This document shows, piece by piece, positions 9,882-50,700 of a stretch of DNA of 64,000 bases. The position numbers and the translations under genes are program-made. The stretch comes from Lingula anatina (taxonomy: Eukaryota > Animalia > Brachiopoda). The notes below the pieces were generated by a model. It made no database searches and was not told where the DNA came from. It saw only the letters and a list, made by a program, of their open reading frames with translations. Position 1 is the first letter of the stretch, and each line of letters starts with the position of its first letter. The stretch covers positions 28,278,401-28,342,400 of the forward strand of contig CM120641.1 in assembly GCA_051362555.1 (NCBI GenBank). The letters are read 5' to 3'.

Positions 9882-12218
9882 TTGTACCACCAGCGTTAGC
9901 GCTGGCGGTACACATGGTTTCGGTCCCGTCCGGATCGTTCCGCCGGCTCCGCCGGCTCCGCCGGCTCCGTTGGCTCCGCCGGACGGCTACCGTTACCGCT
10001 TCTCCTCCTAGACGGTAAGGGCCCCCGTACCCATCTCATGGATTTAGGTCACCTATAATCTCAACTCGTTCCACGTAAAATTTGGGCTTTGTCGGTATTG
10101 GGGTCTGGGTGTGGCACTCATTGCAATGCACCCTTGTCTAAAAATGGCAAAATTAAATGCTAATTATCTACCCTACGGAAGGAGTTATGGGAAAAATTTC
10201 TATAGACAGCTTTCCAAAAGTCATATGTGTAGATTTCAAATATACCCTTGGATTTGACCTTTGACCTTTACTTCAAGGTCAAATGGGCCAAAATTTTCAA
10301 AAAAATGAAATTTTTTACGAAAAAAAATTTTTTTGCCCTGTTATTCAGACACCACACAGACTTAACCAATAATATTATTGGAAAGTGTTACCCTTCAGGT
10401 CATCTTTCATCTCCATGAATTTGGGGTCAATCGGTGCATTTTCACGGGAGTAGCGGCCATAAGATACCGAAACTGAAAACTGTCTCTAATTCGGGAACCG
10501 TTAATGCTAGAGACCCATTCTTTTTTGCATTTTGTAGAGCATGTAAAGCCCAACACTGGAGGTGGTCTCGGTTTTTTTGTATTCCATACGGTTTTCGAGT
10601 TACTCTGTATCAAAAAGTACATATTGGTGGTAAAAGCAAAATGTACAGTACGGTAATGGATAATAAATTTTGAACTCTGGAAAAATAAAACATAAGGCTT
10701 GGCAAAGCAGACAACTTGTGTTCAAAAATGACATTATTTCATCAAATTTGAACTTCTGAAACTTCAGAGCACCTCCTATTTCAAGAATTTTGACCAAAGT
10801 GACATTTTCTTTATTTTAATTAATTTTTTCTGTACGAAATTAAAGGCACATTATGGTAACTCCAAAATTATAACATTTAGTCCCTTATATCTCCAAAACT
10901 GGCAGAGATAGGTCCATAGTTACTATTGAAGTTGAATAGGAAGTCATATACTGGCAATCTTACTATGACCTTGAAAGTGACCTTTGACCTACTTTTCACC
11001 ATGAACTGAACTTTGCAAATTTTTCTTCCCTTTTATCTCCAAAACTGGCAGAGATAGGTCCATAGTTACTATTGAAGTTGAATAGGAAGTCATATACTGG
11101 CAATCTAAATGTGACCTTAAAATTGACCTTTGACCTACTTTTCACCATAAACTGAACTTTGCAAAATTTGCTTCCCTTTTATCTCCAAAACTGGCAGAGA
11201 TAGGTCCATAGTTACTATTGAACTTGAATAGGAAGTCATATACTGGCAATCTAAATGTGACCTTAAAATTGACCTTTGACCTACTTTACACCATGAACTG
11301 AATTTGGCAAATTTTGCTTCCCTTTTATCTCCAAAACTGGCAGAGATAGGTCCATAGTTACTATTGAACTTGAATAGGAAGTCATATACTGGCAATCTAA
11401 ATGTGACCTTGAAATTGACCTTTGACCTACTTTTCACCATGAACTGAACTTTGCAAATTTTGCTTTCCTTTTATCTCCAAAACTGGCAGAGATAGGTCCA
11501 TAGTTACTATTGAACTTGAATAGGAAGTCATATACTGGCAATCTAAATGTGACCTTAAAATTGACCTTTGACCTACTTTACACCATGAACTGAATTTTGC
11601 AAATTTTGCTTTCCTTTTATCTCCAAAACTGGCAGAGATAGGTCCATAGTTACTATTGAACTTGAATAGGAAGTCATATACTGGCATTATAAATGTGACA
11701 TTCAAATTGACCTTTGTTCTACTTTTCACCATAAACTGAACTTTGCAAATTTTGCTTCCCTTTTATCTCCAAAACTGGCAGAGATAGGTCCATAGTTACT
11801 ATTGAACTTGAATAGAAAGTCATATACTGGCAATCTAAATGTGACCTTGAAATTGACCTTTGACCTACTTTTTATCATGAACTGAACTCTGCTAATTTCT
11901 TTCTCTTTTAACTTCAAACTTGACAGAGATAGGTCCATAGTTACTCTTGAACTTGAATAGGAAGTCATATACTGGCAATTTACTGTGACCTTGAAATTGA
12001 CCCTTGACCTACCTTACGAAGAACTTAAATTTGATTGTACCATATATATTTTTTGCAATAGTTTAAAAATTCTTGTTGATTGCATTTTTACAGCTTGTCA
12101 AGCACAAAACTGGTGGCTGTGTCCCTTATTTTGTGTATGTGGGGGTCTATACGAATGCGCTTGCTCCAGCTGGTGGTACAATATTCGGAGGCGGTATCGC
12201 CTCTCTGATCCTCTAGTT
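9882..12218 (+). mobile_element. Helentron/HINE (DINE-1/CvA-like) non-autonomous element, family A, with 146-bp tandem array
   Basis: 5' subTIR tgtaccaccagc with adjacent inverted copy, (ccggctccg)n microsatellite, central array, 3' subTIR gctggtggtaca, terminal palindrome gaggcggtatcgcctc, ends ctagtt. Second copy at 46744-48897. Confidence 0.8.
10882..12012. repeat. 146-bp tandem repeat, about 7.7 copies
   Basis: Unit ...atctccaaaactggcagagataggtccatagttactattgaacttgaataggaagtcatatactggcaat... recurs at 10882, 11028, 11174, 11320, 11466, 11612, 11758, 11904. Confidence 0.95.
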
Positions 12219-14355: not shown

Positions 14356-14691
14356 AGGGATGACAAATGTTCGTATGATGTCCATATTTCACAATAAATT
14401 TATTATAAACAACTCATAGAAATATAATAAATTCTATGTTACCACTAAAATGGCAGTTAATGCAATTATTCTGGGATTTGTGCTTGCCATCACATCATGT
14501 GACCTACATAGATGGCTACACTCTGTAATAATCTCTTGAGAGAATATTACTACCGACCAACTTTTTAGAAAAAAAACAGGGACTAACTTTGAATGTGAGA
14601 ATGGATTAATTAAGCATTAGTAAGTATGGAAAATTGGTGTTTACCCCCAGGAAAATTCATTTTTTGGCCAAAATGAACAATTGTTATCCCT
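14356..14691. mobile_element. TTAA-TSD MITE (Kolobok-like)
   Basis: ttaa|agggatgac...gttatccct|ttaa; homologous to 39666-40042 and 43385-43731. Confidence 0.75.
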
Positions 14692-22409: not shown

Positions 22410-24460
22410 TTATGTACAGACACAGATGTGTCTGTACATATAGCCATCATCTGCGTCTGTCGTCGCCGTCGCCGTCGTCGCTGTCGTCGCCGTCGCCGTC
22501 GCCGTGCACTTTTACCGATAACACGATAAGTGGAAAACCATTTTACCTTTTGACTTGAAACTTGCAGAACTGATGACTATTCATAATACGCAGGTCAAGT
22601 TCGAAAATCAGCATGATCGGGTCACGTTTAGGGAATTTATGCTGTTTTTTCACTTTTTTCAGCATATATGCAGCACCGATAACACGATAAGTGGAAAACC
22701 ATTTTACTTTTTGACTTGAAACTTACAGAACTGATGAATATTCATAATACGCAGGTCAAGTTCGAAAATCAGCATGATCGGGTCACTTTTAGGGAATTTA
22801 TGCTGTTTTTTCACTTTTTTCAGCATGTATGCAGCACCGATAACACGATAAGTGGAAAACCATTTTACCTTTTGACTTGAAACTTACAGAACTGATGAAT
22901 ATTCATAAAACGCAGGTCAAGTTCGAAAATCAGCATGATCGGGTCACTTTTAGGGAATTTATGCTGTTTTTTCACTTTTTTCAGCATATATGCAGCACCG
23001 ATAACACGATAAGTGGAACACCATTTTACCTTTTGACTTGAAACTTACAGAACTGATGAATATTCATAATACACAGGTCAAGTTCGAAAATCAGCATGAT
23101 CAGGTCACTTTTAGGTAATTTATGCTGTTTTTTCACTATTTTCAATATAAATGCAACACTGATAACACAATATAAGAAAAACGGATTGGCCAATTGTAAT
23201 TATACTCACAGGAGTGGTCAATCTTACTAAAACGCAGGTTGAGTTCGAAAATAAGCATAATCGGGCCATTACTTAAGAAGTTATACTGTTTTTTCACATT
23301 TCCTCAGATTCAATTATTAGGCATGTTAACAGTCTCATTATTTAACTAATAAGATGCCTAAAAGTGTTTGTTTGATATTTCCTGCATTTTTACAACATTG
23401 TTAGTTGATTATGTAAAAAACATGGTAAACTTGTTATCATGTATTGTGTAATAAAGTGTCAAAAATGGAAATAAACTCATATCATTGCAGTTTGTCAGAT
23501 TCAATCATCCACTATGTTCAGAATCTCAGAATGGAGGAAATTGGACATTTAACACTGTTCTATTGATACTTTTCCCATCTCATCAATTTTCTTAGTTGGA
23601 CATATAAAAATGGCAGTAAAATGTTTATTTTGTTTTATGTTAAAAAAGTGTTAAAAATGGAAATAAACCCATTTCAGAACAGTGCTGTCTTGTTTACATT
23701 TTGGCATTTTCAAGGCGTGACTTTGAAGTTCCATGGGCCTGAAGACCTTTGCTAGTCACATTTTCTGAATATCTGTGATACAAATATTTTATAATTAAAA
23801 ATTGATGGTCATTAAGCTGTTAAACATTATGTAATATTGCATCAAAATTTGAAGAAACTCCCATTTTGGGCACTGCTTCCATGATGACCATTTAAGGAAA
23901 ATCATGTCACTTACTGTTTTCAAACTTACAGGAAAGAAACATGGGACTAAAATACAGCTTCAGTAGGCAATGCAGTCTGTTTGGTTTTTTTTTTTTTTTT
24001 TTTTTTTTTTCTTTTTTTTTTTTTGGCAGTTAAACAGTTTTTTGTGAAAATTTAATTTTTTACATATTGGCATTTTCAAGGTGTGACTTTAAAGTTCCAT
24101 GATCTTGAAGACTTTTGCTTGTCACATTTTCTGAATGTCCATGTTACTAATATTTTATTAATAACATTTGATTGTCATTATGCTGTTAAACATTATGTAA
24201 TGTTGCATCAAAATTTGAAGAAACCCCTATTTTGGGCACTGCTCCTATGATGACCATTTAAGGGAAATCATGTCACTTACTGTTCTCAAACTTACAGGAA
24301 AGAAACATGGGTCTAACATACAGCTTCAATAGGCAACGCAGTCTGTTTGGTAAATTTTTCTGGCAATTTAACAGTTTTTTGTGAAAATTTAATTTTTCAC
24401 TTATTTGCATCTTTATTTTCTGTTCTTTGTCTGTACATTTGACAGCTTTGCTGCCTTGTT
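22410..24460 (+). mobile_element. Helentron/HINE-like element, family B, with 161-bp and about 366-bp internal tandem repeats
   Basis: 5' hairpin tatgtacagacac-agat-gtgtctgtacata, (gtcgcc)n microsatellite, 161-bp array, about 366-bp duplication (23701/24067), 3' subTIR gtctgtacat followed by gacagctttgctgcc-ttgtt. The 3' part is repeated at 56930-57750. Confidence 0.75.
22514..23300. repeat. 161-bp tandem repeat, 4 near-identical copies plus 1 degenerate copy
   Basis: accgataacacgataagtggaaaacc at 22514, 22675, 22836, 22997; degenerate copy at about 23158. Confidence 0.95.
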
Positions 24461-37741: not shown

Positions 37742-38043
37742 TTATTTATTTTGAAATGGAACAAAACTGGTTCAAGTGCTAAGAAAAGACAACCAATAAT
37801 TCTTTGGTAGGATTTTTTTATTATTTATTCATTTATTTTATTATTATTATTTTTTGCTAGAAAATATTAGATTTGACACAAATATGTACTCAGTATATTG
37901 TATAGAATATACCTTCAAGGGTTTATTTTAGCAAGTTTAATAAAACTGCCCATATTTACATGTTAGTTCCATGGTGCTGGTCATCATCATCATCCGATTT
38001 TTTTTTATACTGGCCGGGATTAATCCTCAACAGAGGGTGGGGC

Positions 38044-39145
38044 TAGCACGAAAGTTCATGCGTTAGCACTCCTATTGACGATACTGATAATATTATGTAC
38101 TGTCTGTGCAGATCTTAGCACAGCTCAGACAGTACATATCAGAATCGTCAATAGGAGTGCTAACGCATGACACCCAAACCCAATATAGAGGTGCATTTCA
38201 CATGCTGAAGTGGCAAAAAATAAAAATGAACGAATTCAAAATTGTGTTCAATATTTCAAAACATATATGTGTATAGAACAAAAATCCACGACTGTCTCAA
38301 TTGAAATTCAATTTTTAATTTTTACCATGTCTTTAAAATTACGCAAAGAGCCCTATATGGTAACGTATGTTCCAAAAACGTACCGTGACGTATGTTCCTT
38401 GCCATTTAATTTTCATTTTTATGCCGCGTTCCGATGTATTTTTTAGTGGTTCAATCATGGTAAATTAGACATGACGTAAGGACGTTTTTATAAAATTAAT
38501 ATTTTAACTGTATCTCAAGGGGCTTTGCGTCATGGCTTATACTAGGGTAAGGTATGTTCCCTAGAAAAATTGTCAAAATGTTTCATTTTGTTCAAGTACT
38601 TGTGCGCAAGAGATACAATGTTTTCTTTTGCTGACCGAACAATATATTGTGGTTCCATGATAGTTTGACATAATAATATTTGAATCATGAAGGGAAAATT
38701 TTTTTATTTAATGCTTATTTTACTGTCGGTAGGGTGTATTTTCCCCATTTTATTAATATTCTGTGACAAGCAAACTTAAGTCGCTCAAAAACAATTAACT
38801 GCTATATACAGAAGATTATGATAATTTTTAGCAACGTTATGCTTGTAGGAGATAAATCAATGAACAAAACCAGTGATGACTGAATTTTCAAAGTGAGTAG
38901 AACGTTTCACAGTTGGACGTTTTGTATTTGTGACAGTAACGTATGTTCCTTTTTGGGGTTAAACGATGAATTATTTTTAATTATTCATGGTTCCAGGAGA
39001 GTGAAACTTTTATACAAGCTTCTTCATGTGGGACCCTAAAATAATCAAACACAGTTAGCAATATGTGCAGTAAATATTTTTAATAAGATGCTTGTGACAT
39101 CAATTGCACCTCTATATTGGGTTTGGGTGATGAACTTTCGTGCTA
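38044..39145. mobile_element. Non-autonomous TIR DNA transposon with TAG termini and 10-bp TSD (AcademH- or MULE-like)
   Basis: TIR tagcacgaaagttcat[insert]cacccaaacccaatatagaggtgca versus tgcacctctatattgggtttgggtgatgaactttcgtgcta; TSD agggtggggc / agggtgtggc (9 of 10 match). Confidence 0.8.
38056..38170. repeat. 115-bp palindromic hairpin inserted in the left TIR of the 38044-39145 element
   Basis: Arms tcatgcgttagcactcctattgacgat-a-ctgat(aatatt)atgtactgtctg and cagacagtacat-atcag-a-atcgtcaataggagtgctaacgcatga around a 19-nt loop. Confidence 0.9.
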
Positions 39146-39665
39146 AGGGTGTGGCCAGTCTGACGCGCAGTCTTCCTCTCCATCTTGATCAACGGATTCG
39201 AATAGCCTACTACTTGTCATAATACTGTGTGGCGTTTTTTACACTGTGGCTGCCCTGCCGATCTCCAACTCTGACATTCGTGGTAGATTGAGACAACGCC
39301 GTTCCCCCAACGGGGCATTATGCCTTGCCGTTGTCTTCTATGCAAAGATCCTCCGCCAAGCCACGTGATGCTAGCACCAGAGCTGAGGTGTGCTGCAGGC
39401 TGCTGCCGGCGTCTACTGCCACCCAGGTTGTGGCAGCTCGTAACCCAGAGAGGGGCCAGTAACTCAGGATGGGGGGCTAACGGGTAGTACCCCTTGCCCA
39501 AGGGGTACCCGGAGTGCATTTTCTCACTGAATTGATACCAACTTTGCAATTATTTTTTTTAACCTTTGCGATTATTTTCATTTTTTATTTTTTTGCACCT
39601 CAAACCCCAGGGGGGGCAGCTGCCCCCCCCTGCCCCCCGGAGGCTACGGCCCTGCCCACCTTTAA

Positions 39666-40042
39666 AGGGATAATAACTCTTCGTATGAGATCTATATTTC
39701 ACAATAAAAACATTGTAAACAACTCATAGAAATATAATATATTCTGTTTTACCACAAAAACGGCAGTTATAGCTATTATTCTAATATCTGAGCTTGTCAT
39801 TGGACCACGATCCAAAGATGGCTATATTCTGTAATAATCTCTTAAGAGATTATTACAAAAAAAAAAAAAAAAAAATAATAATAATAATAAAAAAAAAAAA
39901 AAAAAAAACTTTTGAGAAAAAAACAAGGGACTAACTTTGAATGTAGAAATGGATTCATTAACCATTGGTAAGTATGTAAAAATTGCATGTTGTTTACTCC
40001 AGGAAAATTTATTTTTTGGCCAAAACGAACATTATTATCCCT
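39666..40042. mobile_element. TTAA-TSD MITE (Kolobok-like), about 440 bp upstream of the M28B ATG
   Basis: ttaa|agggataata...tattatccct|ttaa; homologous to 14356-14691. Confidence 0.75.
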
Positions 40043-40484: not shown

Positions 40485-41738
40485 ATGCAGGGGAAACGGC
40501 GAGGTATTCTGGTTGTCGTTGTAATGGTTGCTGTTGTATTGGTGCTTGCAATAGGGATTATTATTGGGCATTTTGCAGTTCCCAAAACCCAAAGCTATCA
40601 GCAATGGGCTGAAGATGAAAGCATATCGGAAAAGTTGATACAAGAAATGAAGGCAGAAAATATTGAAAGTTATCTCCGGTATGTAACAGTAAATTTTAGA
40701 ACTGTGAAAGATGCAAAATGTTACATGCAAGAGTTTAATTAAAATGTAATCTGATCAAAATATATCACAGCATTGTTATTTTTATTGTTTCATACTTGCT
40801 GAAGTCATCTGTGATGACTTATCTACAAATATCCATAGGTACTGTAAAGTATCATATATATGCATGAAAATTTTTCTATATTTCAATATTAATAAATTAA
40901 AATTAGCCACCTCTTTACCAAGGTAAATGAATGCTGGGAAGTTTCTTTTCTTCATACTCGCTTACTGTAAACAGTCATATAAATTGGTATGACTACAGTT
41001 GAATTGAACGAACATGTTTATGTTTTTGTATTCACATTTATGTGTCAAGGATTTCTTATCTATTTATATGTAACAGCTTAAATGGAAGTACAAGTCTGTT
41101 TGCTTGTCTGCTTTATCTGAGTGTGTATTTAGTTTTAGATTTATTGTGATGATTTTTTGAACAGCTTTCAAGAGGCTGGTTTTATTTGCTTTCTACAGCA
41201 ACTTTTTTTTCCAATTTTAGATATTTTTTCTTTAATCATTTGTCAACATTTTTTGTTTGACTGGGCTTATAATAATTTAATTCTTTTTTCATTTTGCCAG
41301 AGACCTAACTGCTCATCCCCATTTAGCAGGCACTGCTGCAGATCTTAGCACAGCTCAGAATTTGTCAGAATTCTGGAAACAGCAGAGTTTCTCACGTGTG
41401 TCTATAGTTCCATACAGGGTGCTGCTGTCTTACCCGGATAAGGAAAACCCTAATCTGGTCTATCTCTTGGACAGTAATGGACAGACATTGCACAGGACAC
41501 AAAAAATGGAAAAAATACTACGACCTGAGCAGAACCAGTCAGATGTTGTTCCGCCATTCCATGCCTACTCCAAGCCTGGAAGTGTTACCAGTGTAAGTTT
41601 GATAGAAAATGATATATGCTGAATGTCCCTATTACATTGTTAAAACATTGTTACCTCATTTCTCATTATATTTTAATAGACAAAACATAACAACAACAGT
41701 GTAATTGAAAGGCCAGATTCTGATTATGTATAAGAACA

Positions 41739-41770
<32 letters not shown>

Positions 41771-44700
41771 CAAATTAATAATAATTATAAAATTAATACT
41801 GATTTCAGAAAAAAATGTTTGGGAGGTATTAAAGCTGTGAAATTAATATGAAAGCATTCAGTAAAAATGATTTTGAACATTTAGAAATCCCCTCAGACAA
41901 TCATGAGATGAAAAATTACAAAGTAAAAAAATAAAAATTCTGAAATCCATTTGACACCAATGGCAGTCAAATTAATCTGGGTATGTTTGTTTCATTTTTC
42001 AGGAAAAGTTGATTTATGTCAACTATGGAAGAGTGGAAGATTTTATTTGGCTCAAAGAAAACAAGTCAATGAACTTTAACAACACCATTGTCATTGCAAG
42101 ATATGGGAAAATATTTAGAGGTGACAAAGTAAGTTGATATTTTGCTTCATATGTTGAAAACTTCACTTCAGTTAAGTTTTAAATGTAATTTTGTCTAAAA
42201 GTATTGATTGAGGGCACTGCATGCATATGTTGTTGCTCAACAGGCCCGTAGCCAGCAATTTCAAAAGGGGGGTTCTTTTTCTGAAAAAGTGGACCTTTTC
42301 CCATAAAAAACCTCATATACCTAGATCAAATTTTACCCAGAGTGGACCTTTTCCCAGCAAAAGGGGCAATTCTTTCGAACCCCCCGAACCCCCCCTGGCT
42401 ATGGGCCTGCTCTGTATAGTAGAAGCTGAATATGTTAATCCAGATCCCTGAAATTATATGCAGACAGGTATTAAAAGCAGCAGATATGTTTGAACTGTTT
42501 TTTTGACAGTTTTGATTATTTCCTATATAATAACATCTAATGCATATTTTTACACAATTTCTCTCAGGCCTTCTGCACCACCATGCAATGTCAGAAACCC
42601 TCTTGCTCTTTTTTAAAAAATTCTAAATCCAAATCCATGTAATAGGGACAGAGGTTCTGGAAATAAATGCAGATGAGGATTGTGACCTTCTAAAGGAGCC
42701 AAAACGTCTGTCAGCTGTGAATTCTGTGCTACATCCACCTGCTGCTGATAACTGTTTATGGCACATTCTATGCTGGCACACGTTCATAATAACCCCTGGA
42801 ACAGTTAACCATTAGTTCACAGGCAGATCCAGGGGAAGCTTTAAGGATCCCTGGCAGTATTAAAATCTCAGTCATTCCCAATTGGACTCATTATAATGTA
42901 TATAATGGGCCTAAGATTTCCAAAAGAAAAAAAATACTTTTTTTTGCAGTGGAAAACGTGAGGTTGCACATAGAAAAAATGAAAGAAAAAGTGTTTCTGC
43001 AATTCCTGATGTTTTGGATATGTAACACATACGCAGCTTGCACCTGCAGTAACTTTTGGTATTATGACTGGCTTCTTTATTTGCCAGTCTTGTTTGAATA
43101 TCAGATGTAAATATATACAGCTTTTTCTCACTCTGAAGATATCAATATCTGAAACCAAACACTTTGCATGGATTAAGCTACATTGTAAAAAATGAAGAAA
43201 GGGGCAATAAATCAGCCAGCATTTTAACTTTATTGTTATTTTTTTTACAGATAAGGCATACCTCAGGGGAGTGATCATCACATAGGTGTGGTCACATCCA
43301 AATGTCTTGCTTCATCTAGATTTACCTGAAGCCTAGCTTTTAAAAAAAGATTTAAGTTGGCAAAAAATAACCTGTATATGTAAAAAGGATAACAGCTGTT
43401 CAATTTGGCCAAAAAATGAATTTTCCTGGGTAAATGACTATTTTCCCATACTTACTAATTGTTAATGAATCCATTTCTAGATTCAAAGTTAGTCCCTGTT
43501 TTTTTTTTTTTTTTTTCTAGAAAGTTTTTTTTTTTGTAATAATCTCTTAAGAGATTATTACAGAGTATAGCCATCTATATGGAGGTCACGTGGTCCAATG
43601 ACAAGCACAGACTTCAGAAACTGATACAACTGTTGATTTTGTGGTAAAATAGAATTTATTATATTTCTGTGAGGAGTTTACAATGTATTTATTGTAAACT
43701 ATGGATCTCACACAAATAGTTGTTATCTCTTTTAATTTTAAAAAACATGCATTTAGAGGACTTCTTTGAGTAGAATTCTTGATCTTCAGTTCTGTAGCAG
43801 TCTTTCTTTCCACTCCTCTTGGTAAGGTATCAAATGCAGAAAACTTTGGTGCTAAAGGTATCCTCATCTACTCGGACCCTGCAGACTATGCCATTGACGG
43901 AGAGACCTCAGTCTACCCAGATTCTTGGTGGCTTCCAGGGACAGGTGTTCAGAGAGGCACTGTATACAATGGAGAGGGAGATCCCAGCACAGTCGGGTAT
44001 CCATCTTTGGGTAAGGATGGGTCAATCTTTTCATATCCCAGTTTTTTTTTAAATTTGAATAGTCAAAATTGGGAAGTGGCTTCTCCTTTTAACAGATTTC
44101 ATCCTTTTTAATATGTGATGGAAAGGAGGGTTTAGAAAATTCTGGATTAAAAATGTAAGAAATTCAAGGAAAAGGGGTGGGGTGAGCTCCTTTTTTGAGT
44201 CTTCAGTCTCATTCCATCCTTGTGAAGACCAAGACTGGTAGATAAGACAATATTTCCGCAATAGTTTTAATCAGATGGATTAATACTGCCCCAGTTTTGA
44301 AAATAAATTGCTTTTTCAAACTAGATGTTCAGATTCAAAGTCAATGATATTAATCACGTAAAAAATATTTGCAAATGGAATTTAATGATTTCTCTGAAAT
44401 GGATCTCTTGGGGAGATTTAAACGGGTAGTCAGATTGTATTTATTTTGAGGTGGGATATGAATTATTTACCTCTTCCACAGTGTGATATATTGATGACCA
44501 TTTCATGTTTTTCTTTTTCAGAAAGTTCATACCGAGACATATCTGACAGATCTGAATGGCCACTGCCAACCATATCATCTCACCCTATTGGATATAATGA
44601 TGCCATTCAGTTTCTTGGGTAATTTGTGCAGAGTTTGTCTTTGATGAATAATTTAAGACATTTTTAACAATGTCACTTTAAGATGTAATGAATAAATTGA

Positions 44701-47700
44701 AAATTAAAGAATGAGCAAAGAAAAAATGAGAGGATAACATATATAATGTTATATGTTCACAAATGTCCTAAAAGTTCTTCAGTGTGAAAAATAAAGAAAT
44801 TAAAATTGTTTATATGTCAATTTTAGTGAACAATTAAGGATGACTGGTAGTGTTAAGTATGCTGAACTTTGTAAAGTTGAGCGGTTTTCTCATCATGCTA
44901 CTTTATTATTACCACACTTATGTCATGTACCCTGTAGGGATTTCCCTTCTGTTAATTTGTTCTAGTATATAACAGTATCTGTATATTTCAGAAAAAGATT
45001 TGTTGCCCCAGGCCTTAAAGACAAAATGTTTGAGCAATAAATTTCTGGAAATGCTATAAGTGTACACTCACACAAGTGTAATCATGAAATCAGAACATGA
45101 TTTTTCTTTGCAAATGTCATTCTCAGTATTGAGTTGAAAGCACCATAATTAATTGTCTAGTGCAATGCCGTCTTATTTATGTTGAAATTTCCAATTTTTT
45201 TTTACCTGATTATATATGAACTTTGACCTTTACCTTTTCATATTTCTTGATTCATGTATAATTATAGCATAACAGAACATATAATAAGTCTGACCGAGAT
45301 ATGTTTATTGCCATCTTTGCTTTATTAAGGAACATGACTGGAGAAGTTGCTCCACCAGAGTGGCAAGGGAAACTATCAATTACATATAGACTTGGACCTG
45401 GGTTCAACAATGCTAGCTGGTATATAGTCTTTTTCTCTTCTTTTATATTTGACTTGTATATTTTTTGCAAGCATCAGTAGTGATTGTTCTTGGAAAAATC
45501 ACAAAATTAAAATTGATTCCCGAAAATGTACAATTAGACTTGGTAATTAGTAAGAGATATTGTTCCTATTTTATGTGTGCAATAATTGCGAGGAGTTTCT
45601 GAGGCTAGTTTGCTGTTAGAAAGTCTGTGATTTCTTAAAATTACAACAGAAATAGTTGTTAGCTGAAAATGTCATTTTATTAACATTTGTACTTTGATAA
45701 AACACAAAGTAAGTACGAATTCAAAATGCATATAGTTGAATATTATCATATGAATGATAATCATGTATGGTAAATCATTTACAAGTTTAAGATATTATTT
45801 TAAGTTTCAGCAGAGATTGGGGGGGGGGGGTGATAATCTCATCCCACATAAATCTTTTTATTGTGACAAATAAATTATATATTTATCCAGTATTTTTATA
45901 GGTACATGTATATATTAAATCATAGCAAACACAATGGGAGTGGCTGCTTGAGAATAAAACTAATTCAGAAAATTCAAATTGGAGTGTTTGTGGACTGATC
46001 ATGAGTTGTCACCAGATTGAGCCTGTGTCACAGTAGCTGGAACCAAAGTGCTGCACATTTATACTACGGCCACAACAACTGAAAAAAAATGTATTCTGTG
46101 TTTTGCATAAAGATTTTGAATATTATCTGCAGATCCAAGGCTTAGGTAAAGTTAAAATGCATATTTTGGAAATCACTGCAGGTAATAAACATTTCAATAT
46201 TTTATTGACTTTTGAATTTTTTCTTTTCTTTTTAATTTCCTTCTTTTCTCTACAGGAAGGTTCAAATGAACATTTCCACTCATGATCAGTACAGAACCAC
46301 CTATAATGTTTTTGGGTTTATTGAAGGCAGTGTTGAACCAGGTAAGTAATCTTGCATTAATACTAAAAATATTTATCCTCAAGAGAGGTATCATCCAAAT
46401 TTAACCATTAAAACCCATTAATTTATACTTATATACATTTTCTGGATGCAATTACCCATGTCTTCAGATGCAAAACCATGTACTTGCGTGTGAAATTATT
46501 GTGAATATGTATTTATTTGTCAGATACAAAATATTTCATATTAATTTAAGAACATCAGTACTATAAATATTGCTTCATTAAATTTTTTTTTTTTGGTTTC
46601 CAGACAGGTATGTTTTGATTGGTAACCATAGGGATGCATGGGTGTTTGGAGCAGCTGATCCATCTAGTGGAACAGCAGCCATGATGGAGATGTCAAGAGC
46701 TTTTGGTCAGATGGTCAAACAAGGTAAGGGGTTTTGCTAATTATTAGTACCACCAGCGTGTACGCTGGCGGTACTCATGGTTTTAGTCCCGACCCGTCTC
46801 GTCCGGCTCCGCCGGCTCCGCATACTGGTGCCGGATACAAGTCACCGTTACCGCTTCTCCTCCTAGACTGCAAGGACCCCTGTCCCCATCTCTTGGATTT
46901 AGGTCACATATAACCTCAACTTGAACCCCCAGGTTTTTTTGTCTCAGTCGGTGCATTGACCTGGGCGTGACGCTCCTTGAAGTGCACCCTTGTCAAAATT
47001 TTTGAAAATTCAATGCCAATTATCTACCCTACGGAAGGAATTATGGGAAAATTTTCTACAGACGGCTTTCCAAAAGTCATATGCGTAGATTTCAAATATG
47101 CCCTTGGATTTGACCTTTGACCTTTATTTCAAGGTCAAACGGGCCAATATTTTCAAAAAAATGAAATTTTTTACGAAAAAAATATTATTTGCACTGTTAT
47201 TCAGACACTACACAGACTTAACCAATAATTATATTGGAAAGTGTTACCCTTTGGGTCATCTTTCATCTCTGTGAATTTGGTGTCAATCGGTGCATTTTCA
47301 CGGGAGTAGCGGCCATAAAATACCGAAACTGAAAACTGTCTCTAATTCGGGAACCATTAATGCTAGCGACCCGTTCTTTTTTGCATTTTGTAGAGCATGT
47401 AAAGCCCAACACTGACAGTGGTCTGCGTTTTTTGTATTTCATACGGTTTTCGTGTTATGCTGTATTAAAAAGTACTTTGTGGTGGCACATTATTGTAACT
47501 CAGAATTGTAACATTTAGTCCCTTATATCTCCAAAACTGGCAGAGATAGGTCAATAGTTATTATTTAAGTTGAATAGGAAGTCATTTACTTGCAATCTAG
47601 ATGTGAGCTTGAAATTGACCTTTGACCTACTTTTCACCATGAACTGAACTTTGCAAATTATTGTTCCCTTTTATCTCCAAAACTGGCAGAGATAGGTCAA

Positions 47701-50700
47701 TAGTTACTATTGAACTTGAATAGGAAGTCACATACTGGCAATTTAACAGTGACCTTAAAATTGACCTTTGACCTACTTTTCACCATGAATTGAACTTTGC
47801 CAATTTTCGTTCCCTTTAATCTCCAAAACTGGCAGAGATAGGTCCATAGTCACTATTGAACTTGAATAGGAAGTCATATACTGACAATTTACAGTGACCT
47901 TAAATTTGACCTTTGACCTACTTTTTACCATGAACTGAACTTTTGCAAATTTTTGTTCCCTTTCATCTCCAAAACTGGCAAAGATACGCCCATAGTTACT
48001 ATTGAATTTGAATAGAAAGTCATTAGAGGCAATTTATTTTGACCTTGAAATTGACCTTTGACCTACTTTTCATCATGAATTGAACTTTGCAGATTTTCTT
48101 TCCCTTTTATCTCCAAAACTGGCAGAGATAGGTCCATAGTTACTATTGAACTTAAATAGGAAGTCATATACTGGCAATTTACTGTGACCTTTAAATTGAC
48201 CTTTGACCTTCCTTTTACTATGAACTGAACTTAGCAAATTTTCGTTCACCTTTATCTTCAAAACTGACAGAGATAGGTCCATAGTTACTATTGAACTTGA
48301 ATAGGAAGTACACTAGCAATCTGTGACCTTGAAATTGACCTTTGACCTACTTTTTATGATGAACTGCTTTTTGCATGTTTTCTGGCCTTTAAATCTGCAA
48401 AATTGGCAAAGAAATGCCCATGGTTGCTATTGAACTTGAATAGAAATTCATATACTATGATATTGAAATTGACCTTTGACCTACTTTTTCACCATGAACT
48501 GAGCTTTGCATATTTTCTTGCCTCTCATATCTTTAAATCTAGCAGAGATGTGCCCATTGTTTCCCCTAGGTTTTCTCTTTTGTCAGCATATATGTACCAT
48601 TGACAACACATTTCAAGGAAAACCAATAGGCCTTTTGTCTAGAGAATACAGTATACAGTGATCAAGGGTAGGAAAATGCAAGTCAATTCGAAAATCTGCT
48701 TGATTGTATCATTTTTGGTTACATTTTTTTGCTTATTTTGAGAACTCTTGTTGATTGCATCTTATAGAGCTTGTCAAACACCAGACTGGTGATGGTGTCC
48801 CTTTTAGGAGGGGGGGGGGGGGGGTCCATACGAATGCGCTTACTCCAGCTGGTGGTACAATATCTGGAGGCGGTATCGCCTCTCTGATCCTCTAGTTCTT
48901 ATAGACTATAATAACAAATGTGGAGGGTCTGTATTAAAAATTGCTTTGATTCATGGGAACCAGTTTTAGAGTAAGTTCAACACATTACTCATATTTTGAA
49001 TAAGAACAATAATATTTTGTGAAGGGCAACTGATATCCTTTAGAAAAGAAAATGGAGTACCTTATCTGAATCAATATCTTTAAAGCAAAGCAGCACAGAT
49101 TAATTGAGAAAAATTGTTTGCTACAGGATGGCGACCCAGACGTACACTGATATTTTGTAGTTGGGGAGCAGAGGAGTATGGTTTGATTGGATCCTGGGAG
49201 TGGGTGGAGGTATGTTAGTGTGGTTTGGTTGTCTCAAGGGAATAGTGGTAGGAATAAATGTGGAAACTTGTTTTCAGATCATTTCACCCAAACTTGTGTC
49301 TGCTTGAATCAAACTCAAATTCTCAAAGATTAAGATCTTTTCAGCCCTTTAATTGAAGTTGACTTTACTTTTATTATGTATTTCTTTGTACCATTCCAGA
49401 ACTTTGTGAAGAACCTCAATCAGCGAGCAGTGGCATATTTGAATGTTGACATTGCAGTACAAGGTCAGTGTGGTAGATTCACAGTGAAGACACTGATTAT
49501 TTTTATCATGGACCCACATGTAGAATTAGGGAAAAAAGAAAATTGTTGAAGTGCAGTTTACTGAGATGAACTAGATTTTTACAATACAATTTCACCATTC
49601 CAACAATTAGATAAAAACTAAATATGTTGATAAGCAAATTGAATGGAAAAACTATGAGTTACAGCCTAAGTTAAAACAAAATTATAGATATTTTGTTCTA
49701 TTCCAGGAAATTACTCAATGCGAGCTTCTTCTACACCCTCTTTACACAAGATTATATATGAATCCAGTAAAAAGGTACAATATAGTATGGTTTTCATGCT
49801 GATTTTTTTCTTTGTATTGAAAATAGCCAAATAATTCTAAAAAGTAAAGAAAGGAAGGAGAATAAACAAATTGTTTTGTTATACTGTATAAAAACAAAGA
49901 CTATCATTATGAGCTATGTCTGCAGGATTGTTATTCTACACCTCTATCACAGATACCAAACCCCAACCCAGAAGAAGTGAAATCAGACAGGCCCACTCTT
50001 TATGATACCTGGGTCAATTCTTTCCCCAGGAAAGGATCACAGCCAAAATTGCCATTGTGAGTATTAATATTGGCCCCAAAAGTTGAAAAAAAAAAAAAAA
50101 AAACAGACTTGACATTTAATATGGAATATTTTTTTCCAAATCTTTTTCATCAATTTTGTCCCATTTTTTTGACTGATAAATGAAAATAAGGATTAAAATC
50201 ATGTTTTAATAACTCTTTATAATCTCCTTGATGTCATTGTGATATCAGTTCTTTAAGGAGGGAATGTAGGTTTGAGATTTTCTCTTAAAATAAAGGTCTT
50301 GGCTTTTTTATTCCTGTCACATTCATTTAACGTATCTTCAAAATATCTAATTATGCTTGGAACACAGCTTTAACTTCATCGTGTGACGTAATATTGGGAT
50401 TTTGGGGACAAAAACACCATTTTTATACACCTGATTTTCTCAGGCACCTGGACAGCTATAAACTTGCTTTTGATGTCATTATGACACTTGAACAAAGTAC
50501 TACAGCATGGAGTCAGGGATTTTTCTTCAGACACTTATTGTTGATTTTATCTATAAAAACGTGAAATTACATCAAAATATTAGGGAATTTTCATTTTCAA
50601 AGTCTATAAATTAGAAAAGAGAGGATCAATCAAAATTTCTTAAAAAGCACTTTTAGAGCATACTGTTCATAATTAGCATGGTAAATTTGGTCTCCCTCAG

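What the first reader, a model, noticed from the sequence alone, without database searches (positions are those of the whole stretch)
38056..38170. Hairpin whose centre is an exact 23-nt copy of a coding exon of the neighbouring gene
Seen: a stem of about 45 bp per arm (one mismatch, one 6-nt bulge) encloses a 19-nt loop. Positions 38107-38129, tgcagatcttagcacagctcaga (loop plus 4 nt of the right arm), are identical to 41337-41359 in coding exon 2 of the M28B peptidase (codons for ADLSTAQ), 3.2 kb downstream and on the same strand. A rough uniform-composition estimate gives about 1e-4 chance 23-mer pairs in 64 kb. The hairpin sits inside the left TIR of a transposon whose right TIR shows the uninterrupted sequence, and I see no clean TSD. 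Inference: read on the minus strand it would be a stem-loop RNA presenting a small-RNA-sized segment perfectly antisense to the peptidase mRNA, i.e. a fixed scaffold plus a gene-matching guide. Alternatively it records templated capture of local exon sequence by snap-back/template-switch repair, aided by ctg/caga microhomology.
Basis: partly seen in the sequence, partly recalled or inferred. Interest (0 to 1): 0.8.

Follow-up and report, generated by a model that had tools for sequence, protein, structure and literature searches.

The report
Transposon hairpin patched with exon DNA
A small, abundant jumping-gene hairpin upstream of a lamp-shell peptidase gene has at its centre 23 bases identical to that gene's second coding exon, most likely a harmless patch copied during DNA repair rather than an RNA guide.

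Summary
The 23-nt identity (38107-38129 = 41337-41359) is real and far beyond chance, and one public DNA run holds the same loop. The hairpin is itself a 139-bp fold-back element (TAG…CTA ends, 10-bp target duplication at 9/10). A 959-bp CACCC…GGGTG element with a 4-bp duplication interrupts its right arm. The arms are a high-copy repeat, and the 6 sister centres whose letters were shown all differ (3-22 nt). The family's inner arm already supplies about 13 of the 23 letters; only about 10 are foreign, and these encode residues conserved in orthologues, so the exon is the likely donor. Best reading: a centrally deleted copy whose two ends were joined with a patch copied from the only other match to its own 9-nt motif in the window, a miniature Pack-TIR. 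Class unresolved: DNA transposon (AcademH/Mutator-like) likelier than Penelope. No support for a guide RNA; small RNAs could not be tested. This scan noted similar locally patched fold-backs in other genomes before.

The parts
38034..38043 (.). Left copy of the 10-bp target-site duplication of the fold-back element (element A)
   Evidence: 9/10 identical to 39146-39155; the other lengths tried (2-9, 11, 12) match at 7/12, 3/5 or less; chance about 6e-5 for this length
38044..38109 (+). Left arm (terminal inverted repeat) of element A; begins TAG; carries a 6-nt insert near 38090-38095 and a private A at 38083
   Evidence: 21-29 contigs per run end here with unrelated flanks, agreement 0.37-0.43 (table 7); arm-to-arm alignment
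38107..38129 (+). 23-nt patch identical to the exon. Letters 38110-38114 and 38124-38128 are foreign to the family; the rest coincide with family arm sequence
   Evidence: A at 38125 in nearly all family contigs; loose ends before 38122 and 38130
38115..38170 (+). Right arm of element A, inner part; 38167-38170 (ATGA) is also the left copy of element B's target duplication
38171..39129 (.). Element B: 959-bp non-coding element with CACCC…GGGTG ends (24-25-bp perfect inverted repeat), inserted into A's right arm; CAC ends with a 4-bp duplication suggest the CMC/Chapaev group (recalled)
   Evidence: many contigs begin at 38170/38171 with unrelated flanks; longest stop-free stretch 85 aa
39130..39133 (.). 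Right copy of element B's 4-bp target duplication (ATGA)
   Evidence: 4/4
39134..39145 (+). Outer 12 bp of A's right arm, displaced by element B
   Evidence: exact reverse complement of 38044-38055; 23-28 contigs per run continue behind 38170 with this sequence (table 7)
39146..39155 (.). Right copy of A's 10-bp target-site duplication
41301..41592 (+). Coding exon 2 of the GCPII/NAALADase-2-like (M28B) gene
   Evidence: AG/GT boundaries read
41337..41359 (+). Likely donor of the patch (codons for A-D-L-S-T-A-Q); holds the only other TTAGCACAG in the window

Best explanation
The hairpin is a short, centrally deleted copy of a high-copy fold-back element, likely a non-autonomous DNA transposon, whose two shortened arms were likely joined with a repair patch copied from exon 2 of the neighbouring peptidase gene, and it is likely neutral. 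Shown: arms, ends, both target duplications, high copy number, varied sister centres, the exact match, and that the exon carries the family's inner 9-nt motif. Inferred steps: (1) the element inserted (10-bp duplication); (2) it broke or was incompletely repaired in the middle and lost its inner sequence; (3) a broken end annealed to the exon 3.2 kb away through short homologies (TGC on the left, TTAGCACAG inside, CAGA on the right), copied across the 23 nt and rejoined the other arm, as in gap filling or polymerase-theta-type synthesis-dependent end joining; (4) element B inserted into the right arm, before or after step 3 (order not shown). The class (AcademH- or Mutator-like) is inferred from the ends and duplication length only. 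Confidence: about 0.87 for a templated patch in either element class, about 0.62 for this DNA-transposon version.
For: The match is not chance: given the shared 9-mer site, the 10 foreign letters agree with probability 6e-7. The arms are repetitive: summed contig depth 35,000-96,000 on the outer arms in X1/X2 against about 80 on the unique flank (the tool warns this is no copy number), and 173 X2 contigs lie on the 87-nt stretch. The loop is not a constant centre: in X2 one contig of depth 83.7 carries it, at the level of the unique flank. Nine different arm-to-arm joints are among the 15 joints shown (of 32), each at depth 12-138, and 6 different centres of 3-22 nt are listed (tables 5, 5c). 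The family inner arm continues beyond this copy's breakpoints: the loose-end consensus before 38122 ends GCGTT in X2, X3 and X18. TTAGCACAG occurs only at 38115 and 41345 in 64 kb (0.63 expected by chance, so such a site is easy to come by). Direction: A-D is kept in 15 of 16 and the later A in 16 of 16 homologues printed (16 of 82 hits), and the foreign letters encode these residues. Precedent: in animal Pack-TIRs 56.9% of donors lie within 15 kb, most within 5 kb, and 67.6% have breakpoint microhomology (PMC8277862 section 8). A 10-bp duplication fits AcademH (9-10 bp; PMC10045372 passage) and MULEs (8-11 bp; PMC5861414 passage).
Against: No pre-patch allele or empty site of this locus was seen. 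No autonomous partner or transposase could be sought (no genome), so the class is unproven. Variable arm end points and a head-to-tail junction in a sister copy (table 5c) also fit Penelope-like insertions. The sister centres shown are short and mostly arm-derived (read by eye), so capture from kilobases away is shown for this one copy only. The templates in the SD-MMEJ passages read are described as nearby sequence (PMC2943611), not as kilobases away. Neutrality is inferred, not tested.
Confidence: 0.62

Rival explanations
1. Same patch, different vehicle: the element is a 5'-truncated Penelope-like retroelement inserted head-to-head, and the exon patch was copied when the two new cDNA ends were joined at insertion.
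For: PLE insertions are often flanked by an inverted 5'-truncated copy and form partial tandems (PMC8557442 passages), with 8-10-bp duplications (PMC3846280 passages). Sister copies here share outer ends but differ in inner ends. One head-to-tail junction was seen in X2 (table 5c), and arm-to-arm fold-back joints in X18 RNA (table 5). Unchecked scan notes report PLE fold-backs with local filler in other genomes (a lead only).
Against: There is no 30-40-bp tail on either side: the duplication abuts both termini. Contigs leaving the right terminus show no shared continuation beyond about 12-14 letters (agreement 0.55-0.56 over 30). No hammerhead was found by Rfam, though the arms are short, the tail is optional and Naiads lack hammerheads.
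Confidence: 0.25
2. Guide system: fixed arms present a variable loop that yields an antisense small RNA against the neighbouring gene.
For: The perfect 23-nt match is of small-RNA size, the fold is very stable on both strands, centres do differ between copies, and family arms occur in RNA on both strands. Young Pack-MULEs similar to their parental genes give more siRNAs in rice (PMC5861414 passage).
Against: Centres differ in length (3-22 nt) and arm breakpoints wander, unlike a fixed scaffold. About 13 of the 23 letters are family arm sequence. Most of the match is in the loop. The only Rfam miRNA hits are far below gathering score (34 of 70 bits).
Confidence: 0.04
3. Coincidence: a random filler happens to equal the exon, helped by the shared 9-nt motif and by a scan of some 250,000 windows.
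For: The 9-mer site alone is expected by chance. By hand from the match probability (0.27 per base), a window holds about 3e-4 chance 23-mer pairs, so tens are expected across the scan.
Against: The pair must also fall at a hairpin centre and straddle its junction. Given the 9-mer, the other 14 letters agree with probability 2e-9.
Confidence: 0.04
4. Assembly artefact joining exon and repeat sequence.
For: Fold-back repeats trouble assemblers (PMC8557442 passage), and X2 could be the source of the window.
Against: A 231-nt contig of run X2 spans 38084-38149 with 0 other letters and 6 gap letters, so the loop joined to both arms exists in short-read data, in a form that is not letter-for-letter the window's.
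Confidence: 0.01

Closest known systems
Single-copy Pack-TIRs of animals, made by gap filling (Tan et al. 2021, PMC8277862; abstract, sections 8 and 14 read)
   Same: Host sequence between the inverted ends of one element; donor in cis within 5 kb; microhomology at both breakpoints; breakpoints internal; single copy of the captured form seen.
   Different: The captured tract is 23 nt (about 10 foreign), below that study's 100-bp floor. Here most of the element's interior appears lost, whereas their gaps were a median 4.6% of the element. An internal 9-nt homology with the arm itself is present.
Synthesis-dependent microhomology-mediated end joining / polymerase-theta templated insertions (PMC2943611; passages read)
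   Same: A short insertion forming a repeat that includes flanking sequence on both sides; sister centres built from arm fragments look like such junctions.
   Different: The template here is 3.2 kb away; the passages read describe nearby templates. No enzyme was tested.
AcademH and Mutator-like (MULE) non-autonomous elements (TSD lengths from passages of PMC10045372 and PMC5861414; TAG ends of Academ recalled, the Kojima 2020 paper is not held)
   Same: Long terminal inverted repeats, 10-bp duplication, TAG…CTA ends, many copies.
   Different: No transposase or autonomous partner was seen; membership is untested.
Head-to-head insertions of EN+ Penelope-like elements (PMC8557442, PMC3846280, PMC11167929; passages read)
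   Same: Inverted arms with shared outer ends and variable inner ends, 8-10-bp duplication, an occasional tandem.
   Different: No tail, no hammerhead and no reverse transcriptase were seen here.

Membership tests
Pack-TIR (Tan et al. 2021) | Captured host sequence between two inverted ends of the same element | tested here: met
Pack-TIR (Tan et al. 2021) | Internal captured sequence longer than 100 bp (operational cut-off) | tested here: not met
   23 nt against the cut-off in section 14; it works like a Pack-TIR but would not be counted as one
Pack-TIR (Tan et al. 2021) | Donor in cis and near; microhomology at breakpoints | tested here: met
   3,208 bp apart; 3-nt and 4-nt end homologies plus 9 nt inside
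Pack-TIR (Tan et al. 2021) | Same element without the captured tract at the orthologous or allelic site | tested here: inconclusive
   X1 holds one contig (depth 67.8) over 38095-38109 whose match stops before 38111, but its locus is not shown
AcademH / MULE non-autonomous DNA transposon | Terminal inverted repeats with a sharp common terminus | tested here: met
   (table 7)
AcademH / MULE non-autonomous DNA transposon | 9-10-bp (AcademH) or 8-11-bp (MULE) target duplication | tested here: met
   10 bp at 9/10, at this one copy only
AcademH / MULE non-autonomous DNA transposon | Autonomous partner with matching ends and a DDE transposase (plus helicase for AcademH) | not testable with these tools
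   no genome; collection scans blank
EN+ Penelope-like element | Inverted 5'-truncated copy and partial tandems | tested here: inconclusive
   variable inner ends and one head-to-tail junction in sister copies; deletion derivatives of a TIR element would look alike
EN+ Penelope-like element | One-sided 30-40-bp tail (optional) | tested here: not met
   the duplication abuts both termini; no shared continuation in loose ends
EN+ Penelope-like element | Hammerhead ribozyme in the pLTR (absent in Naiads) | tested here: inconclusive
   none in 37900-39300 at E<=5; only about 70 nt of arm are present
EN+ Penelope-like element | RT plus GIY-YIG open reading frame in full-length copies | not testable with these tools
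   no genome
miRNA / hairpin-siRNA precursor | Targeting sequence lies in the stem | tested here: not met
   most of the 23 nt lie in or beside the terminal loop
miRNA / hairpin-siRNA precursor | Discrete 20-25-nt RNAs with precise ends; target cleavage | not testable with these tools
   only RNA-Seq libraries with reads up to 150-151 nt were listed and laid

The most novel reading that the evidence does not exclude
The family's own repeated TTAGCAC motif steers its broken ends to nearby genes, so many copies acquire a 20-25-nt centre matching a neighbouring exon, and transcribed copies yield loop-derived antisense RNAs: a transposon that writes local silencing guides in an animal.
Probability: 0.04. 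Interest if true: 0.75.

Novelty: new member of a known kind. Interest (0 to 1): 0.2.

Why it matters
As read here it is a clean, minimal example of how a transposon remnant picks up host sequence: donor, microhomologies and family background are all visible. It shows capture far below the 100-bp floor of the animal Pack-TIR survey, and a template apparently chosen by likeness to the element's own motif. That is of modest use to people who study transposon decay and end joining. It would matter much more only if the family did this routinely and the centres became small RNAs, for which nothing was found.

Tried and rejected
No whole genome is held, so the genome-wide table of arms and loops could not be made. 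Exact or degenerate arm patterns found nothing in viral, metagenome or prokaryote genome contigs. Only the two arms match in the window at up to 3 mismatches. The run search listed no RNA holder (no evidence either way).

In 3 of 4 DNA runs (X1, X3, X5) no contig covers the loop positions listed (38111, 38113, 38120, 38121). This may mean the patched allele is polymorphic, but a hole in contigs proves nothing and is not used as evidence.

RNA lay (6-25% of each run read): 212 reads from 3 studies lay almost wholly on the right arm. None covers the allele-specific 38084-38092. One read in X12 and one in X18 lie across 38111-38113 with their letters not listed, and the reads over the left inner arm start at 38094/38095, as family arms without the 6-nt insert would. 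The animals may not carry the allele, so this is inconclusive on transcription.

Rfam gave only sub-threshold hits. Pfam gave nothing for the exon alone. The donor site has no special fold (z 0.13), so snap-back at the exon is not needed.

Rejected: the hairpin as an insert in another element's TIR; an 8-bp hAT-type duplication (it needs a terminal base that the family's loose ends do not share); exon derived from the element.

Papers not held: one PMC id tried for a TSD table and Kojima 2020 AcademH. Passages of PMC11071193, PMC10294476, PMC12973397 and bioRxiv 10.1101/2024.05.28.596352 did not identify the family; the preprint's repeat tables are supplements that were closed and might name it. 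Ten paper searches surfaced no description of this family in their listings; none was a search by sequence.

Full report
1. Observation. The two 23-mers at 38107-38129 and 41337-41359 are identical and cannot be extended. The hairpin folds as described on both strands (z -13.1 and -12.5). The second copy lies in a 292-bp coding exon (41301-41592) whose product aligns without gaps to human glutamate carboxypeptidase II and is 100% identical to an NCBI Lingula anatina NAALADase-2-like protein. Under the window's own composition 1-3e-9 copies of this 23-mer are expected, and 0 of 20,000 shuffles of the centre reach more than 16 nt. The match is real.

2. Anatomy. No genome is held, so I laid contigs of four public DNA runs on 37960-38400. 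The outer arms draw summed depths of 35,000-96,000 in X1 and X2 against about 80 on the unique flank. The tool warns that this is no copy number, but it marks a high-copy repeat. In every run 21-29 contigs end at 38044 with unrelated flanks, and 23-28 continue behind 38170 with the reverse complement of 38044-38055. So the family end is 38044, and the missing 12 bp of the right arm are at 39134-39145. Between them lies a 959-bp element with CACCC…GGGTG ends and an exact 4-bp duplication (ATGA). Around the whole lies a 10-bp duplication at 9/10.

3. How much of the loop is foreign. At 38125 family contigs read A, not T (7,407 of 7,407 depth in X1). Loose ends before 38122 end in GCGTT in X2, X3 and X18 and run on inward with a partly shared sequence (agreement 0.49-0.64). 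The family arm thus contains TTAGCACAG followed by ACAG or CCAG, and the mirror image on the left gives TGC. This copy has lost everything inside those points. Of the 23 matched letters about 13 coincide with family sequence; AGATC (38110-38114) and CTCAG (38124-38128) do not, and both are exactly as in the exon. TTAGCACAG occurs only twice in the window, here and in the exon (0.63 expected, so one such neighbour is unremarkable). Given that site, the 10 foreign letters agree by chance with probability 6e-7. The foreign letters encode A-D (kept in 15 of 16 homologues printed) and the later A (16 of 16; 16 of 82 hits printed), so they are ancestral in the exon, and the exon is the likely donor.

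4. Sister copies. Among the 15 joints shown (of 32), 9 link a left arm to a right arm, each at single-locus-like depth, with differing end points. Six different centres of 3-22 nt are listed (tables 5, 5c; 26 rows not shown, some about element B). By eye, 4 of the 6 contain 7-12-nt runs of arm sequence and the other 2 are 3-4 nt long. One further X2 contig (depth 47) has a centre of the same length with other letters (table 3). The window's loop is carried in X2 by a single 231-nt contig (depth 83.7; 38084-38149; 0 other letters, 6 gap letters). So the centre is not constant, which removes the 'constant MITE centre' escape, and it exists in short-read data. But the variation looks like deletion junctions, not like interchangeable guides. 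Whether sister centres match their own neighbourhoods could not be tested.

5. RNA. Of 212 reads laid from three RNA studies, nearly all lie on the right arm and come from other copies; none covers the allele-specific 38084-38092. These libraries (reads up to 150-151 nt) cannot show small RNAs and the animals may lack the allele, so this is inconclusive. Rfam gives only sub-threshold hairpin hits.

6. Mechanism. Shown: element ends, duplications, repetition, varied centres, exact match, shared motif. Inferred: a central break or aborted gap repair; annealing of a broken end to the exon 3.2 kb away through TGC, TTAGCACAG and CAGA; copying across 23 nt; rejoining. This is the gap-filling route described for single-copy animal Pack-TIRs, where 56.9% of donors lie within 15 kb and 67.6% show microhomology (PMC8277862, section 8). 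It is below that study's 100-bp floor (section 14), and the junction has the form of a templated insertion (PMC2943611, passages).

7. Class of element A. A 10-bp duplication fits AcademH (9-10 bp; PMC10045372, passage) and MULEs (8-11 bp; PMC5861414, passage); TAG ends fit Academ (recalled). Earlier notes of this scan on other genomes describe Penelope-like fold-backs with locally copied filler (unchecked AI notes, used as a lead). PLE insertions do have inverted truncated copies and 8-10-bp duplications (PMC8557442, PMC3846280, passages). Here, however, there is no tail on either side, no shared continuation beyond the terminus among family contigs, and no hammerhead; one head-to-tail junction keeps Penelope alive. 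I put the DNA-transposon version at 0.62 and the Penelope version at 0.25; the patch is the same in both.

8. Verdict. A real, non-random, but ordinary kind of scar: a fold-back transposon remnant patched with 23 nt matching a nearby exon. New member of a known kind; interest 0.2. The guide reading is not excluded by a direct test but has nothing in its favour beyond the size of the match (0.04).

Noticed in passing
window 38157-38335 (table 8, records 1, 9, 17): In X1, X2 and X3 a contig joins the last 12-14 letters of A's arm to a B-type end at the same ATGA, but with 19 other letters and 135 letters unlike the window beyond 38335. It is either a divergent allele or a second B-family insertion at the same site in another A copy (target preference).
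   Followed up: no
window 38084-38149, run X2 (record 1): The X2 contig has 6 gap letters (72 record letters over 66 window letters) at an unlisted place. The contig ends exactly 30 letters after 38125 if the left arm's 6-nt insert is also present in the right arm, so that allele is probably the more symmetrical one (inferred).
   Followed up: partly
family arm, window 38056-38069 and loose ends before 38122: A full family arm appears to contain its own hairpin of about 14-16 bp around a 30-nt spacer, and three copies of the TAGCAC motif; these may be transposase-binding repeats or an RNA 3' structure.
   Followed up: no
window 39661-39983 and 43440-43735: Two oppositely oriented copies of another repeat (blocks 83-98% complementary) bracket the start and first exons of the peptidase gene; a third copy lies near 14400-14670.
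   Followed up: no
window 37975-38034 and 39146-39520: Element A sits in another repeat (summed depth about 1,100-2,400 over 37990-38034 in X1/X2); the GC-rich right flank looks like a LINE 5' untranslated region (by eye, recalled). With B this makes three nested elements about 2.3 kb upstream of the start codon.
   Followed up: no
window about 10870-12000, 47500-48540 and 22510-23140: Tandem arrays with units of about 146 bp (two related arrays inside a dispersed repeat) and 161 bp.
   Followed up: no
P0002: The NCBI model of this gene is 538 aa and lacks PF04253, present in most full-length (about 700-800 aa) homologues listed: a truncated model or a shortened protein.
   Followed up: no
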